Notes under the pieces: model-generated | Told to the model about the DNA's origin: nothing | What the model saw: the letters and a program-made list of their open reading frames with translations, nothing else | The model's database searches: none | Part shown: one piece after another, positions 613-36,890 of the stretch | Position numbering within the stretch: position 1 is the first letter of the stretch | Layout of the letters: the number at the start of each line of letters is the position of its first letter | Made by a program: the position numbers and the translations under genes | UHGV virus genome: UHGV-0390443 | From: a virus | Direction: 5' to 3' (one strand) | Length of the DNA stretch: 39,252 nucleotides

Positions 613-693
613 TGGTAAGCCCTGTTATTAGTATTGGGATTACGGTCATTTTGTGCTGACACAAAAAAAAGATCAACCACATTTGGTTTTTTA

Positions 694-708
694 TTACCTT
701 TGAGGTGC
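694..708. promoter_or_regulatory. Operator-like dyad TTACCTTTGAGGTGC (imperfect member of TTACCT-N4-GGTAA family)
   Basis: Matches family consensus in 14 of 15 core positions; intergenic, upstream of zinc-finger gene on minus strand. Confidence 0.45.
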
Positions 709-709
709 G

Positions 710-742
710 AATAGATATGAAAAGACCGCCGGATGGCGGTCT
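710..742 (-). terminator. Putative intrinsic terminator after Cro-like gene (tR1-like position)
   Basis: Stem AGACCGCC/GGCGGTCT (723..742) with loop GGAT; minus-strand downstream tract TTTCATAT. Confidence 0.45.
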
Positions 743-763
743 ACAGAGGGTTGTGGCTGGATA

Positions 764-994
764 TCATGAGTAGAAGAAGTATGCCAGTTCTGCTTTTGAG
801 CGCAGCCATTGTCTTGTTTTACAGGCTTTAAAAAGCCCATTCATCAATACCTTACCTGGCATTTTGCGCTTACCTGTTAAGTGAGTCTGGATATAGTGAC
901 TCGTCGTTCCGGCTTCCTGTGCGAAGGCTTCACGCTCATCCGGAGTAAGTGCAAGCCAGTGCTTTTTGAAATCGAAATGTCCGTTATCGCTCAT
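764..994 (-). CDS. Cro-like HTH DNA-binding protein (first gene of minus-strand early operon)
   Basis: 76-aa ORF; HTH-like segment FAQEAGTTSHYIQTHLTGKR; divergent from repressor across operator-containing intergenic region. Confidence 0.6.
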   Translation of the reverse strand: MSDNGHFDFKKHWLALTPDEREAFAQEAGTTSHYIQTHLTGKRKMPGKVLMNGLFKACKTRQWLRSKAELAYFFYS

Positions 995-1061
995 AGCTAT
1001 TGCCTGATATTTATTTCAGATAATAAATATTCACCCATAAGGTAACAAAAATCAAGGATAG

Positions 1062-1093
1062 TTACCTATGGGGTGCATTTACCTGTTGGGTAA
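1062..1093. promoter_or_regulatory. Tandem operators in the switch region: TTACCTATGGGGTGC (1062..1076) and TTACCTGTTGGGTAA (1079..1093), centres 17 bp apart
   Basis: Dyad-symmetric sites between divergent genes 764..994(-) and 1149..1733(+); also flanked by GGTAAC...GTTACC inverted repeat 1041..1066. Confidence 0.6.
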
Positions 1094-1148
1094 TATTGCT
1101 TTAAATTGAATCATCTACTGATTCATATATGAGGCGATTTTCCAGAAA

Positions 1149-1733
1149 ATGAAAAGTATCCAGGACGTCCGCAGGCAAAATCTCAACGACTTGATCGACC
1201 GTGAATTCAATGGTGTTCAGACGCGGATGGCAGAAAAACTTGGAACTCAGGCAAATCTGGTAAACCGCTGGGCTCTTGGCAAGAAGGTTATCGGCGACCA
1301 GGTTGCGCGAAAAATTGAAGCTGCCGCCAATAAACCCCGTAACTGGCTTGATATCGATCGCTCGCTTTCTCAGGAAGGTTTTCAGCCTGTCGGCCCAAGC
1401 GACATTGGTCAGCTGGCGGCTCACAACCTGGAACGCTGGATGAGCGAAAGCCGCGACCTTTCAACACAGGGAAAACTTCACCGCGCATCCGGCGTCGCCC
1501 AGGTGACAATCAGCCGCCTGTTAAACAATGAGGTCAGCGTTTCCATTTCCACCCTGGAGAATGTTGCATCCGCATTCGGGCGTCACGGCTATGAATTACT
1601 GATTCACCCGCACGACCCTGCGACCATCAACTATGACCGCTCGCGCTACGCATTGTTACCCGAAACCGAGAAAGCAAAGATCGAAAGTTACATTGAATTT
1701 GTCATCAACCAGAACGAAAAAAACAAACAATAA
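1149..1733 (+). CDS. Phage repressor-like regulator with two HTH modules (CII/XRE-like N-terminal HTH plus second HTH); no LexA-like peptidase domain evident
   Basis: 194-aa ORF; motifs QTRMAEKLGTQANLVNRWALGKK and LHRASGVAQVTISRLLNNEVSVSISTLENVASAFG; CI-like position (divergent from Cro-like gene, followed by terminator). Confidence 0.65.
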   Translation: MKSIQDVRRQNLNDLIDREFNGVQTRMAEKLGTQANLVNRWALGKKVIGDQVARKIEAAANKPRNWLDIDRSLSQEGFQPVGPSDIGQLAAHNLERWMSESRDLSTQGKLHRASGVAQVTISRLLNNEVSVSISTLENVASAFGRHGYELLIHPHDPATINYDRSRYALLPETEKAKIESYIEFVINQNEKNKQ

Positions 1734-1753
1734 AATCATATTTTTCAGTAAGT

Positions 1754-1779
1754 AAGCCGCCTTCTGGCGGCTTTTTTAT
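1754..1779 (+). terminator. Rho-independent terminator after repressor gene
   Basis: AAGCCGCC-TTCT-GGCGGCTT followed by TTTTATT. Confidence 0.75.
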
Positions 1780-1790
1780 TGCCTGCGCAA

Positions 1791-1867
1791 TTACCTTAAG
1801 GGTAATTTTTTTAACTCATATCTATTGACACCAAACCAAATACGCATAATTATTACCTCAACGGTAA
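1791..1867. promoter_or_regulatory. Early plus-strand promoter region with two operators: TTACCTTAAGGGTAA (1791..1805) and TTACCTCAACGGTAA (1853..1867), flanking TTGACA at 1825..1830
   Basis: Perfect dyads; -35-like hexamer between them; immediately upstream of RBS GAGGTGA and ATG 1887. Confidence 0.6.
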
Positions 1868-1886
1868 CAGACCGAGGTGACAAGTT

Positions 1887-2039
1887 ATGCAGTGGAAAAT
1901 CATCAACGGTTGGTACTGCGTTACTGCATGCGGATTCATGAGCTGGAAGTTCCGCACCTTACAGGAAGGCATTAAGTGGGCTTTCGTCAGCAAAGAAGCT
2001 CGCGATGTGGCCAACGATAACGAGATATGGGAGGGCTGA
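1887..2039 (+). CDS. Small hypothetical protein (50 aa)
   Basis: ATG 1887 with strong RBS GAGGTGA at 1874..1880; not in ORF track (below 60 aa); MQWKIINGWYCVTACGFMSWKFRTLQEGIKWAFVSKEARDVANDNEIWEG. Confidence 0.45.
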   Translation: MQWKIINGWYCVTACGFMSWKFRTLQEGIKWAFVSKEARDVANDNEIWEG

Positions 2040-12304: not shown

Positions 12305-12570
12305 TTTACATCGCACTCCTCTTGTGCCATAGTAATCAGGCACTGGCAAAATCCAGTGCCGGGATTGGTCTCCCGGATTACTACAGAGGCACATATGCCG
12401 CATAAGCGGTTTTTTTATGTGTAAAGCGCACCTATTCTATGGTGGGCTGTGTGGGGGCACCGAAAGGTGCGCCGGGTTCCTTTGTAGCCGGTAAGACCAA
12501 CTCTGCACAGTTCACCACCATCTGATTGGTCTCAGCGGTGGTGATTAACCTAACTACAAAGGTGATCGCC

Positions 12571-31227: not shown

Positions 31228-31304
31228 GTGGCATTAGCTCAGTTGGACAGAGCAACCGCCTTCTAAGCGGTTGGTCGCAGGTTCGAATCCTGCATGCCAC
31301 GCCA
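31228..31304 (+). tRNA. tRNA-Arg (anticodon UCU), with encoded CCA
   Basis: Manually folded cloverleaf: acceptor GTGGCAT/ATGCCAC, D-stem GCTC/GAGC, anticodon stem ACCGC/GCGGT with loop CTTCTAA, T-stem GCAGG/CCTGC with TTCGAAT loop. Confidence 0.85.
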
Positions 31305-34767: not shown

Positions 34768-35024
34768 TACCGCACCTCCAGTCTCCATACCGCCTGACCA
34801 ATCCGGCTGGCATGGGTATCTTTGGATACTGTTCCGTCTTTAGCCATCTCCATAAGAATTTTGCGCAAATCTGCCGAACGCCATTCTTCATCAGGAAATT
34901 CCTTCTCCATTGCCAACCGCAGATTCCAGGTTGCCATCCTGAATGGATATTCCCCGCCGAGAGCTTTATCTTGCAGGGCAGCCCGGGAACGCATCACCTG
35001 CAAAACCTTCTCTTTTACAGCCAT
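34767..35024 (-). CDS. Hypothetical protein (about 85 aa)
   Basis: Internal ATG of ORF 34767..35099 (MAVKEKVLQ...), abutting the upstream stop. Confidence 0.4.
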   Translation of the reverse strand: MAVKEKVLQVMRSRAALQDKALGGEYPFRMATWNLRLAMEKEFPDEEWRSADLRKILMEMAKDGTVSKDTHASRIGQAVWRLEVR

Positions 35025-35812
35025 CACTTCACCTCCTGCGGCGGTTCTGGTAGTTGCATCCAGTGTGATGGTATCCACGACGCACCAGGAATTATCCACC
35101 CATCATTAGCGTCAGGATGCCCAGGGATGTAAGTCGCCCATTTCATTCGCCAGTCACCTTTCCTGTCAAACTCCCTGGCAACAAGAACGGCTGTTTTGCT
35201 ATCCGGCATTAGATCACTACAGCTTATCCAACCATCCGGAGTTACCGGATAGTTGCCCGATAGCGCATTACGCAATCGCTCCAGCTTCACGTATTCCTGA
35301 ACCCTGTTTCCGTCGCATGCCTGAAGCCATTGCGCAGCCTTTTGCGCATCAGTGTGAAAGGCACAAGTGCGACCGTCATCAAATTGCATTTCGTAGAGGT
35401 CAGCAACTTGTTCAAACTGCGTGTGTTGTGACTTGTAAGTTTGGCTTACAGGTTCGGCACCATGAAGCATGGCGGCGCGGCAGGCGTTCCAGCCTCTCAC
35501 CTCTGCAATAGCGGCAACAGCATCGACCGCGTACATTTTAAGAGGGTTAGGCATTGGTTTTTCTTCAGGTACTACTGGCACTGGAGGGGCGGCATAAACA
35601 GGAATAACGTCCGATTGCTCTTTATTGCTTTCATCCGTTAAAGCCCAGAATAATTTTCCAGCCGGATGTTTGAAAATATAAGCAACTGGATCTGCTTCCA
35701 GCGATGCCAGTGCAATTTCATAAGCACGGCGCTCAATATTGTCTCGAACGTCCAAGCTGCCTATGCGCTCTTTGATTTCTTTAATCAGTTCTTTGTCGGT
35801 GAAAGTGGTCAT
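35024..35812 (-). CDS. DUF551 domain-containing early protein
   Basis: ATG 35812 with RBS AAGGAG; C-terminus GWISCSDLMPDSKTAVLVA...SHWMQLPEPP matches DUF551 signature ending. Confidence 0.6.
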   Translation of the reverse strand: MTTFTDKELIKEIKERIGSLDVRDNIERRAYEIALASLEADPVAYIFKHPAGKLFWALTDESNKEQSDVIPVYAAPPVPVVPEEKPMPNPLKMYAVDAVAAIAEVRGWNACRAAMLHGAEPVSQTYKSQHTQFEQVADLYEMQFDDGRTCAFHTDAQKAAQWLQACDGNRVQEYVKLERLRNALSGNYPVTPDGWISCSDLMPDSKTAVLVAREFDRKGDWRMKWATYIPGHPDANDGWIIPGASWIPSHWMQLPEPPQEVK

Positions 35813-36164
35813 ATCACTCTCCTTTAGTGCGAAAGTGGTTTTTCCAGCGGTTTTGTGCTGCGCTTCTGTTTCGCCAGACACCGTAAAAACGAATAGAGGA
35901 ACACCCCCTAAAACCCAGATATCTATAGTAAATAACAAGCCGATTTGAGATACGGATACGCTGCCCCGGCTTTGCTATCAGCATCTTTGCCTTACGGTTT
36001 TTCATCGCACTGCGTACCCCTTCTCTCGTCTGTTCCGCGACGCGGTGGGTTTATAGTTAAATGCGAATACCACCCTACCAAACATGCCGATCACCGCCCG
36101 TTTGTGATTGCTGATTGGTAGCTTCTCGTACCCCGTCGAACGCGATAAAAGAAGTAATTTTGCC

Positions 36165-36890
36165 TTACGGTTTTTCATCGTTTTGTTCTCCTGCGTCTCC
36201 TTTGATGCGAATGCCAGCGACGCGGATTGCAGCGATGACTTCAGAAACTTTGTATGCCATTACCGTTTGGTAATCCTCGTTAAAATCTGTTCGATGAAGC
36301 ATACTGCTACGTTCCGGGAGCAGTATTTCCCGCGCTTCCAGTTCTGCTATGCGCTTCTCTGCGGATTCCAGCGCCGCAACCAATTCGTCTACAGTTCCGG
36401 CAGCTTGCAGTGCGTAATCGGTAATAGCCATCTCATGATCAATTTCAGTACCGTTCTCATTCGTTGAGGTGATAGCAAAATAATCAGAGTCGATTTCGTT
36501 ATCAGCTAAGTGGCGTAGCGTATCGGCAACAAGCCGGCCGTTTTCGATTAGCAGCTTCCCTACCGTTAGCGCAATATCCTCGTTCTCCTGGTCGCGGGAT
36601 TTGATGTATTGCTGGTTTCTTTCCCGTTCATCCAGTAATGCCAGCACGGTAGCTGGATTGGCTGCGGCGATGAATTCAGCATTGGCCTGCTGTTCCATTT
36701 GGAAATCTTCATAGAAACGGCTTTCTGGATGCGCTCCTTCAATTCTGCAAATGGGAATATATCCAGCAACCTCGCGATGAATTAGTGCATCATCACCATC
36801 AAATCGTCCCTCTCCATATTCGAGCGACCACACACCACACGTTGCTTTCTCTGCCTTAGCACGCAATGCCTGATAGTCAATCTTGCTCAC
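36165..36890 (-). CDS. Ead/Ea22-like family protein
   Basis: Motifs IDYQALRAKAEKAT, NAEFIAAANPATVLALLDE, AEKRIAELEA; GTG 36890 preferred (RBS AGGAGG) over ORF-track 36923. Confidence 0.6.
   Translation of the reverse strand: MSKIDYQALRAKAEKATCGVWSLEYGEGRFDGDDALIHREVAGYIPICRIEGAHPESRFYEDFQMEQQANAEFIAAANPATVLALLDERERNQQYIKSRDQENEDIALTVGKLLIENGRLVADTLRHLADNEIDSDYFAITSTNENGTEIDHEMAITDYALQAAGTVDELVAALESAEKRIAELEAREILLPERSSMLHRTDFNEDYQTVMAYKVSEVIAAIRVAGIRIKGDAGEQNDEKP

What the first reader, a model, noticed from the sequence alone, without database searches (positions are those of the whole stretch)
35814..36178. Duplicated 22-bp translation-start module giving two small basic ORFs that both begin MKNRKAK
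The string TTTGCCTTACGGTTTTTCATCG occurs at about 35985..36006 and 36159..36180. On the minus strand each copy provides ATG AAA AAC CGT AAG GCA AA, opening ORFs of 63 aa (35814..36005, ending just before the DUF551 gene start) and about 55 aa (36178 downward). Neither has recognisable homology. Could be a duplicated leader peptide or regulatory uORF, or a small basic protein family.
Basis: seen in the sequence. Interest (0 to 1): 0.4.

Follow-up and report, generated by a model that had tools for sequence, protein, structure and literature searches.

The report
Two tandem small basic phage genes
The repeated 22-base string is the shared beginning of two neighbouring, related small genes from an uncharacterised phage protein family already catalogued as PHROG 1380, so the finding is real but ordinary.

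Summary
The 22-mer CGATGAAAAACCGTAAGGCAAA (minus strand) occurs exactly twice, at 36159..36180 and 35986..36007, where chance predicts none. Each copy opens a minus-strand ORF: A (36002..36178, 58 aa) and B (35814..36005, 63 aa).

"No recognisable homology" is wrong. Both ORFs match PHROG 1380 over their full length. Profiles of A-like and B-like proteins still align after the shared N-terminus is removed. The family is small: 174 clusters at 90% identity, almost all named ones enterobacterial. Its motifs are NRKA[KR] at the N-terminus, [ST]N[RH] in the centre and QNR near the C-terminus.

In about 190 related loci the family occurs as one, two or three head-to-tail copies. In 37 of 38 unique tandem pairs the genes overlap by ATGA. 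The two start modules of a pair differ by 0-3 bases, so the window's 22/22 match is the top of a general pattern.

The module holds a start codon plus stop codons in both other frames. In most loci the upstream gene ends inside it; here the Ea22-like gene does. That suggests translational coupling. Sequence-similarity breakpoints between phages fall at the module.

Protein function is unknown; the proteins are very basic (pI about 11.6-11.8). A DUF551-specific leader or uORF is not supported.

The parts
36159..36180 (-). Copy 1 of the 22-nt start module (CG + ATG AAA AAC CGT AAG GCA AA). It contains the start of ORF A and, in another frame, the last codons and TAA stop (36165..36167) of the Ead/Ea22-like gene.
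35986..36007 (-). Copy 2 of the 22-nt start module. It contains the start of ORF B and, in the third frame, the TGA stop of ORF A (ATGA overlap).
36002..36178 (-). ORF A, 58 aa, pI 11.6. PHROG 1380 member of the 'upstream' type, with the tail ..NRREKGYAVR*.
35814..36005 (-). ORF B, 63 aa, pI 11.8. PHROG 1380 member of the 'terminal' type, with the tail ..QNRWKNHFRTKGE*.
36165..36890 (-). Ead/Ea22-like gene (PF13935). The mechanical ORF runs from 36923. The likely start is GTG at 36890, which overlaps the stop of the preceding ORF as GTGA; this start is inferred from the sequence.
36188..36191 (-). GGAG Shine-Dalgarno-like motif 9 nt upstream of the ORF A start, inside the Ea22-like coding region.
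   Evidence: sequence reading
36016..36022 (-). AAGGGGT Shine-Dalgarno-like motif 10 nt upstream of the ORF B start. It is encoded by the KGY codons of ORF A's tail.
   Evidence: sequence reading; conserved junction
35819..35825 (-). AAAGGAG Shine-Dalgarno motif 6 nt upstream of the DUF551 start. It is encoded by the TKGE tail of ORF B.
   Evidence: sequence reading
35024..35812 (-). DUF551 gene (PF04448), 262 aa, starting 1 nt after ORF B's stop.

Best explanation
ORF A and ORF B are two diverged paralogues of a small (about 58-65 aa), very basic phage protein family, PHROG 1380. They sit head to tail in the early operon of a phiV10-like phage, between an Ead/Ea22-like gene and a DUF551 gene. 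The 22-bp repeat is the family's conserved 5' end: 20 nt encoding MKNRKAK plus 2 junction bases. The module carries ATG in one frame, TGA in the second (ATGA) and TAA in the third (CCGTAA). Whichever other frame the preceding gene uses, it therefore terminates on or just after the start codon. In the window the Ea22-like gene ends at the TAA of copy 1 and ORF A ends at the TGA of copy 2. The likely consequence, inferred and not shown, is that Ea22-like, A, B and DUF551 are translated as a coupled chain by termination-reinitiation. Shine-Dalgarno motifs encoded in each gene's tail would assist. The conserved ends also act as short homology patches where phages exchange cassettes, which explains arrays of 1-3 copies, reassorted cores and position-dependent C-terminal tails. 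The proteins' own function is unknown. My guess, from their charge and the NR-K motifs at both termini, is nucleic-acid binding by an early accessory protein.
For: Family membership: both ORFs match phrog_1380 end to end (E 5.8e-23 and 5.5e-13). A-like and B-like profiles align at 96.6% probability (E 5.6e-10), and still at E 1.3e-5 after the first 10 residues are removed. The shared motifs are visible.
Coding: the family comprises 174 clusters at 90% identity. Among 120 unique gene sequences, third codon positions change about twice as often as first or second positions.
Generality of the repeat: across 193 loci there are 128 single, 62 double and 3 triple arrays. In 37 of 38 unique tandem pairs the genes overlap by ATGA. 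The two 22-nt modules of a pair differ by 0-3 nt.
Peptide rather than DNA is conserved: synonymous variants of the MKNRKAK codons exist. Distant members keep NRKA[KR] behind different first residues.
Junction design: in 108 unique upstream contexts the preceding ORF ends at the ATGA stop in 74 and at the CCGTAA stop in 20. Downstream, the next ATG is 1 nt after the stop in 123 of 162 loci.
Cassette exchange: L021, L084 and L145 are 96-100% identical to the window across ORF A. They fall to 40-72% across most of the ORF B core just after the B start module and return to 96% at the conserved C-terminal segment. Cores reassort between partners and between upstream and terminal positions. Chimeras such as P0041 exist.
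Fold: both paralogues give the same predicted helix, three strands, helix topology.
Background: ATGA overlaps are known to support termination-reinitiation coupling (PMC6728339). Short conserved flanking sequences are known to mediate module exchange in lambdoid phages (PMC2327257).
Against: There is no direct evidence that either ORF is translated, and I found no literature on the family. NCBI's pipeline leaves these ORFs unannotated in many RefSeq genomes. Purifying selection is only moderate. The structure models are of modest confidence (pLDDT 65 and 71) and match no known fold, so the proposed nucleic-acid binding rests on charge alone. Coupling and recombination at the module are inferred from sequence patterns and were not measured. 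The survey loci are redundant and phylogenetically related, so the counts are not independent events.
Confidence: 0.78

Rival explanations
1. The two ORFs are regulatory upstream ORFs or leader peptides whose translation controls expression of the DUF551 gene.
For: ORF B ends 1 nt before the DUF551 start, and its tail encodes that gene's Shine-Dalgarno motif. Translation of B probably does influence DUF551 translation, in the generic sense of coupling.
Against: In relatives the terminal family member precedes about 20 distinct downstream ORF groups, and DUF551 is a minority partner. The ORFs are about 60 codons long with conserved internal protein motifs and a coding substitution pattern. No Rfam element lies in the region. 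The RNA around the starts is no more stable than shuffled sequence. The only terminator-like hairpin is weak and sits in the variable core.
Confidence: 0.05
2. The ORFs are not translated. The repeat and the conserved flanks are DNA-level recombination scars or linker sequences, and the ORFs are by-products that gene callers pick up.
For: Similarity breakpoints coincide with the conserved ends. RefSeq annotation often omits the ORFs. Constraint on the central part is weak. No fold or function could be assigned.
Against: The reading frames stay open in 120 unique sequences, and the internal length variants seen in the protein alignment all keep the frame. The third-codon-position excess lies in exactly this frame. 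The central [ST]N[RH] and C-terminal QNR motifs are conserved between paralogues whose DNA is not alignable. Distant members keep the peptide motif with different codons and different leading residues. Every start has a Shine-Dalgarno motif at proper spacing.
Confidence: 0.1
3. The perfect 22/22 identity in this window reflects a recent local event, either tandem duplication or micro gene conversion between the two starts, and not family-wide conservation.
For: The closest relatives with the same two cores (L103, L119, L117) differ between their two modules by 1-2 synonymous bases, while the window has none. A single AAA to AAG change or a short conversion tract would account for this.
Against: Identity stops exactly at the conserved peptide. 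The rest of A and B is not alignable at DNA level, so there was no recent duplication of the gene. Five of 38 unique pairs also show 0 mismatches, and most show only 2. This reading would explain one base at most.
Confidence: 0.07

Closest known systems
PHROG 1380 (uncharacterised phage protein family), e.g. phiV10 p50/p51, VT2-Sa p08 and the unannotated ORF overlapping 933W L0068
   Same: Both ORFs give full-length HMM matches. They share the length, charge, motifs and genomic setting downstream of an Ea22-like tail. phiV10, TL-2011c and P1-like phages have the same tandem arrangement with an ATGA overlap. The phiV10 annotators had already noted that p50 and p51 resemble each other.
   Different: Nothing essential. 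ORF B carries a rarer core type (MLIAKPGQRIRISNRL), and the A+B combination seen here occurs in only 22 of 5426 complete E. coli genomes.
ATGA-overlapping, translationally coupled gene pairs (termination-reinitiation; PMC6728339, PMC10666635)
   Same: A and B overlap by 4 nt (ATGA). The stop-to-start distances at the Ea22-like/A and B/DUF551 junctions are -14 and +1 nt. Each start is preceded by a Shine-Dalgarno motif inside the upstream gene.
   Different: Here one conserved start module carries stops in both alternative frames and is re-used with many different upstream genes. Coupling itself was not measured.
Short conserved boundary sequences that mediate module exchange in lambdoid phages (HK620/HK97-type mosaic junctions, as cited in PMC2327257)
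   Same: High-identity patches end at short sequences shared by otherwise diverged phages. Neighbours reassort on either side.
   Different: The shared sequences here are the conserved coding ends of a small gene and not intergenic linkers. The exchange spans lambdoid Stx phages, phiV10-like phages and P1-like phage-plasmids.
Small early proteins of the lambda exo-xis region (Orf60a, Orf63, Orf61, Ea8.5)
   Same: These are also small accessory proteins encoded next to ea22 in early operons (PMC8614690). In Stx phages the family sits in that same region.
   Different: No sequence or fold similarity was found. In this window the module lies downstream of the replication genes, not between exo and xis.
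CsrA/RsmA RNA-binding proteins
   Same: Similar size, and a strand-rich core followed by a C-terminal helix. They were the top Foldseek hits.
   Different: The hits are not significant (E about 1-10, TM about 0.3-0.4). hhalign probability is 0.3%, and there is no Pfam or PDB sequence match. Rejected as a relative.

Membership tests
PHROG 1380 | Full-length match to the family HMM (62 positions) | tested here: met
   ORF A matches residues 1-58 to profile positions 1-60 (E 5.8e-23). ORF B matches residues 1-63 to profile positions 1-62 (E 5.5e-13).
PHROG 1380 | Family motif set: N-terminal NRKA[KR]xL, central [LIV]x[LIV][ST]N[RH], C-terminal [ST]A[AS][QR]NR | tested here: met
   All three motifs are present in both ORFs. 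M1, R4, K5, S, N and N-R are invariant columns in the 49-sequence alignment.
PHROG 1380 | A and B are homologous to each other independently of the shared 7-residue start | tested here: met
   hhalign of A-like against B-like profiles with the first 10 residues removed gives E 1.3e-5 and probability 81%.
Translationally coupled overlapping gene pair | Co-directional genes with a stop/start overlap of 4 or 1 nt, or a very short spacer | tested here: met
   A/B overlap as ATGA. Ea22-like/A overlap by 14 nt. B and DUF551 are separated by 1 nt. The ATGA overlap is conserved in 37 of 38 unique pairs.
Translationally coupled overlapping gene pair | Downstream translation depends on upstream translation | not testable with these tools
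   This needs reporter fusions with premature stops in the upstream gene.
Leader peptide / regulatory uORF | Conserved association with the regulated downstream gene | tested here: not met
   About 20 distinct downstream ORF groups follow the terminal copy in relatives.
Leader peptide / regulatory uORF | Alternative RNA structures or a terminator coupled to translation of the short ORF | tested here: not met
   Start regions fold at -3.5 and -5.7 kcal/mol, within the range of shuffled sequence. There is no Rfam match. The only hairpin is weak and lies in the variable core.
CsrA/RsmA (PF02599) | Sequence or profile similarity to CsrA | tested here: not met
   hhalign probability is 0.3%. There is no Pfam hit at E<=1. 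Foldseek E values are about 1-10.

The most novel reading that the evidence does not exclude
The two conserved ends of this small gene may be portable junction cassettes. The 5' module combines a start codon with stops in both other frames. The 3' tail combines a Shine-Dalgarno motif, a stop and a 1-nt spacer. Together they would plug the gene into any operon with built-in translational coupling. They would also serve as homology anchors that shuffle variable protein cores and neighbouring accessory genes among lambdoid Stx phages, phiV10-like phages and P1-like phage-plasmids. Under this reading the variable core could be evolving rapidly against a host or rival-phage target.
Probability: 0.25. 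Interest if true: 0.5.

Novelty: new member of a known kind. Interest (0 to 1): 0.22.

Why it matters
The practical value is modest. First, two real-looking small genes, and their relatives in many E. coli prophages, are often missing or misplaced in public annotation, for example at 933W L0068 and in many RefSeq records. Second, the locus is a clean natural example of how conserved gene ends that combine start, stop and Shine-Dalgarno signals can keep translation coupled while also acting as recombination joints in mosaic phage genomes. Third, the family sits in the poorly understood accessory regions next to ea22 that influence the lysis-lysogeny behaviour of Shiga-toxin phages. An experimentally tractable 60-residue basic protein there could be worth testing. 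Nothing here suggests a new kind of system.

Tried and rejected
- CsrA-like fold: CsrA/RsmE topped the Foldseek PDB list, but not significantly. hhalign against a CsrA alignment gave 0.3% probability. Rejected.
- Family libraries: Pfam, NCBIfam and PADLOC gave no meaningful hit for either ORF.
- RNA element: Rfam found nothing in 35500..36500 even at E<=1. Local folding at the starts was unremarkable.
- Species-level survey: the genome-contig scan confirmed only one locus, because confirmation used the A-type sequence alone. That scan was largely wasted.
- Wider family: an exhaustive HMMER search of 1.84 billion representatives found only 55 clusters. One of these (P0139) is a repetitive, unrelated-looking protein. 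No informative domain fusion emerged beyond frameshift or read-through products such as P0141 and P0140, and two longer distant members (P0143, P0154).
- Literature: searches for MKNRKAK and VT2-Sap08 returned nothing. The exo-xis papers I checked do not discuss this ORF.
- Antisense coding: the + strand ORFs across the region do not share wobble positions with ORF B and share them with only a short stretch of ORF A. This is my own frame arithmetic on the coordinates. They do not explain the substitution pattern.

Full report
**Observation**

The exact 22-mer TTTGCCTTACGGTTTTTCATCG occurs twice on the + strand, at 35986..36007 and 36159..36180. There are no further matches even with three mismatches allowed, and none in 100 dinucleotide-preserving shuffles.

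Read on the minus strand, each copy is CG ATG AAA AAC CGT AAG GCA AA. Each opens an ORF: A at 36002..36178 (58 aa) and B at 35814..36005 (63 aa).

- ORF A's TGA overlaps ORF B's ATG (ATGA).
- ORF B's TGA is 1 nt before the ATG of the DUF551 gene (35024..35812; PF04448).
- The upstream Ead/Ea22-like gene (PF13935) ends ..GAT GAA AAA CCG TAA. Its stop at 36165..36167 therefore lies inside copy 1, 14 nt past the ORF A start.

**Setting**

All these genes are on the minus strand in one tightly packed operon. The order is: DnaT-like, lambda-P-like, DUF1064, a 205-aa ORF, Ea22-like, A, B, DUF551, three small ORFs, small and large terminase, and further on a PF12236 portal.

Over its last 19 kb the window is about 97-98% identical to phiV10-like phages over the 71-83% of that stretch that aligns. 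These include EC.W1-9, O157 typing phages 9 and 10, TL-2011b and HEMP4. HEMP4 encodes proteins identical to A and B.

**What the ORFs are**

Pairwise BLASTP sees only the shared first ten residues. However, both ORFs match PHROG 1380 end to end, with E 5.8e-23 and 5.5e-13.

That PHROG could contain both types by construction. I therefore built separate A-like and B-like profiles. They align at 96.6% probability (E 5.6e-10), and still at E 1.3e-5 after the first ten residues are removed. A and B are true, old paralogues.

A profile search of 5.8 billion proteins found 174 clusters. Almost all named ones come from Escherichia, Salmonella, Citrobacter or Enterobacter, and nearly all are called hypothetical. 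An exhaustive HMMER search of 1.84 billion representatives found only 55 clusters at 50% identity. The family is narrow.

Its signature has three parts:

- an N-terminal MKNRKAKxL;
- a central [LIV]x[LIV]SN[RH];
- a C-terminal [ST]A[AS]QNR, followed by one of two tails.

Distant members keep NRKA[KR] behind different first residues (MVS-, MIS-, MSTN-, MATN-). In a sample gathered with degenerate peptide patterns, the seven codons show synonymous variation: AAC/AAT, CGT/CGC/CGA, AAA/AAG and GCA/GCT/GCC. The peptide is what is conserved; the DNA follows.

Among 120 unique gene sequences, third codon positions differ about twice as often as first or second positions. This fits coding under moderate constraint.

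Both proteins are very basic, with pI 11.6 and 11.8 and 15-17 Lys+Arg against 1-2 acidic residues.

**The repeat is a family-wide pattern**

Two scans of viral contigs plus annotated phages gave 193 loci: 128 with one copy, 62 with two and 3 with three.

Among 38 unique tandem pairs, 37 overlap by ATGA. The two 22-nt modules of a pair differ by 0-3 bases: five pairs by none and twenty-three by two. The closest relatives that carry the same two cores as the window (L103, L119, L117) differ by one or two synonymous bases. The window's perfect 22/22 match is thus the upper end of a general pattern. At most one base could reflect a local event.

The exact A+B pair occurs in 22 of 5426 complete E. 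coli genomes, on chromosomes and on roughly 90-kb plasmids. RefSeq annotation usually leaves it uncalled.

**How it probably works: translation**

The module offers ATG in one frame, TGA in the second (ATGA) and TAA in the third (CCGTAA).

In 108 unique upstream contexts of the first family copy, the preceding ORF ends as follows:

| Where the preceding ORF ends | Contexts |
|---|---|
| At the ATGA stop | 74 |
| At the CCGTAA stop, as in the window | 20 |
| 2-23 nt upstream of the start | 13 |
| At another in-module stop (+5) | 1 |

Each start has a Shine-Dalgarno-like motif inside the preceding gene:

- GGAG, 9 nt before the ORF A start;
- AAGGGGT, 10 nt before the ORF B start, encoded by A's KGY codons;
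- AAAGGAG, 6 nt before the DUF551 start, encoded by B's TKGE tail.

Downstream of terminal copies the next ATG follows the stop by 1 nt in 123 of 162 loci and overlaps it in 26 more.

Overlaps of this type are known to give termination-reinitiation coupling (PMC6728339, PMC10666635). I infer a coupled chain Ea22-like, A, B, DUF551. This has not been shown. The start regions are weakly structured, at -3.5 and -5.7 kcal/mol, but no more so than shuffled sequence.

**How it probably works: recombination**

The C-terminal tail depends on position. Members followed by another copy end ..QNRRKKGYAVR*. Terminal members end ..QNRWKNHLRTKGE*. The same core can carry either tail.

Cores reassort. The window's A core pairs with three different terminal cores, and the commonest terminal core pairs with four different upstream cores. 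A chimera with an A core and a terminal tail exists (P0041).

Loci L021, L084 and L145 are 96-100% identical to the window across ORF A. They drop to 40-72% across most of the ORF B core just after the B start module and return to 96% at the conserved C-terminal segment. These breakpoints are what exchange at short conserved flanks would produce, a route already described for lambdoid mosaics (PMC2327257).

**Rejected or unresolved readings**

- DUF551-specific leader or uORF. This does not fit, because about 20 distinct downstream ORF groups follow the family in relatives. No RNA family or notable structure lies in the region.
- Non-coding scar. This is unlikely given the open frames, the codon-position bias and protein motifs shared by paralogues whose DNA cannot be aligned.
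- Literature. Searches for the peptide and for VT2-Sap08 found nothing.

Nucleic-acid binding is therefore only a guess from charge and from the NR-K motifs at both termini.

**Verdict**

The repeat is the conserved start of two tandem paralogues from an already catalogued, uncharacterised phage gene family. The mildly interesting points are the three-frame start/stop design of the module, the use of the conserved ends as mosaic joints, and widespread under-annotation.

Noticed in passing
window 12340..12522 (+): Rfam gathering-score matches to isrK Hfq-binding RNA (12340..12416) and, directly next to it, C4 antisense RNA (12435..12522). This is the P1/P7-type immunity RNA pair.
   Followed up: no
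window 31228..31301 (+): A tRNA gene (Rfam RF00005, 73 bits) lies on the strand opposite to the surrounding late and terminase-region ORFs.
   Followed up: no
L004 (933W, AF125520) 1501..1689 versus annotated L0068 at 1619..1906: A full-length family member in 933W is unannotated. The annotated L0068 start overlaps it by about 70 nt in another frame, so the L0068 start is probably misplaced.
   Followed up: partly
L206 (NZ_CP033635) 631..1161, and many hits: RefSeq/PGAP leaves the A+B pair unannotated in many E. coli genomes. In this record the flanking Ea22-like gene and one of the DUF551 genes are flagged as partial pseudogenes.
   Followed up: partly
window 36887..36890 (-): The likely GTG start of the Ea22-like gene overlaps the stop of the preceding 205-aa ORF as GTGA, with AAGGAGG 7 nt upstream. 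Tight coupling therefore seems to extend up the operon.
   Followed up: no
L002 (phiV10) 1328..1504; L003 1328..1504: In most relatives the ORF just upstream of the first family copy is a 58-aa arginine-rich ORF (phiV10 p49..AKKRRRAKR*). It reads the Ea22-tail-like sequence in another frame and ends at the ATGA stop. Whether it is a real gene or a remnant of an Ea22-like 3' end is unclear.
   Followed up: partly
ORF A and ORF B termini (window 36160..36178, 35986..36005, about 35835..35860): The N-terminal KNRKAK and the C-terminal QNR(W/R)K(N/K) are similar basic NR-K motifs. At DNA level both contain AAAACCG or GAAAAACC. This may be an internal repeat of a binding motif.
   Followed up: no
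window 35894..35910 (-): A weak terminator-like hairpin followed by a T-rich tract lies inside ORF B's variable core. I did not check whether it is conserved.
   Followed up: no
L125 (JQCU01000388.1, 228-bp contig labelled Acinetobacter idrijaensis): This was the only genome contigs locus confirmed. It is a tiny contig encoding an A-type member in a non-enteric genome assembly, which looks like contamination.
   Followed up: no
P0141, P0140: Database proteins that fuse a family N-terminus to the downstream gene: B core with DUF551, and A-like core with a Cys-rich 69-aa protein. These look like frameshift or read-through variants and show how easily these junctions are rewired.
   Followed up: no
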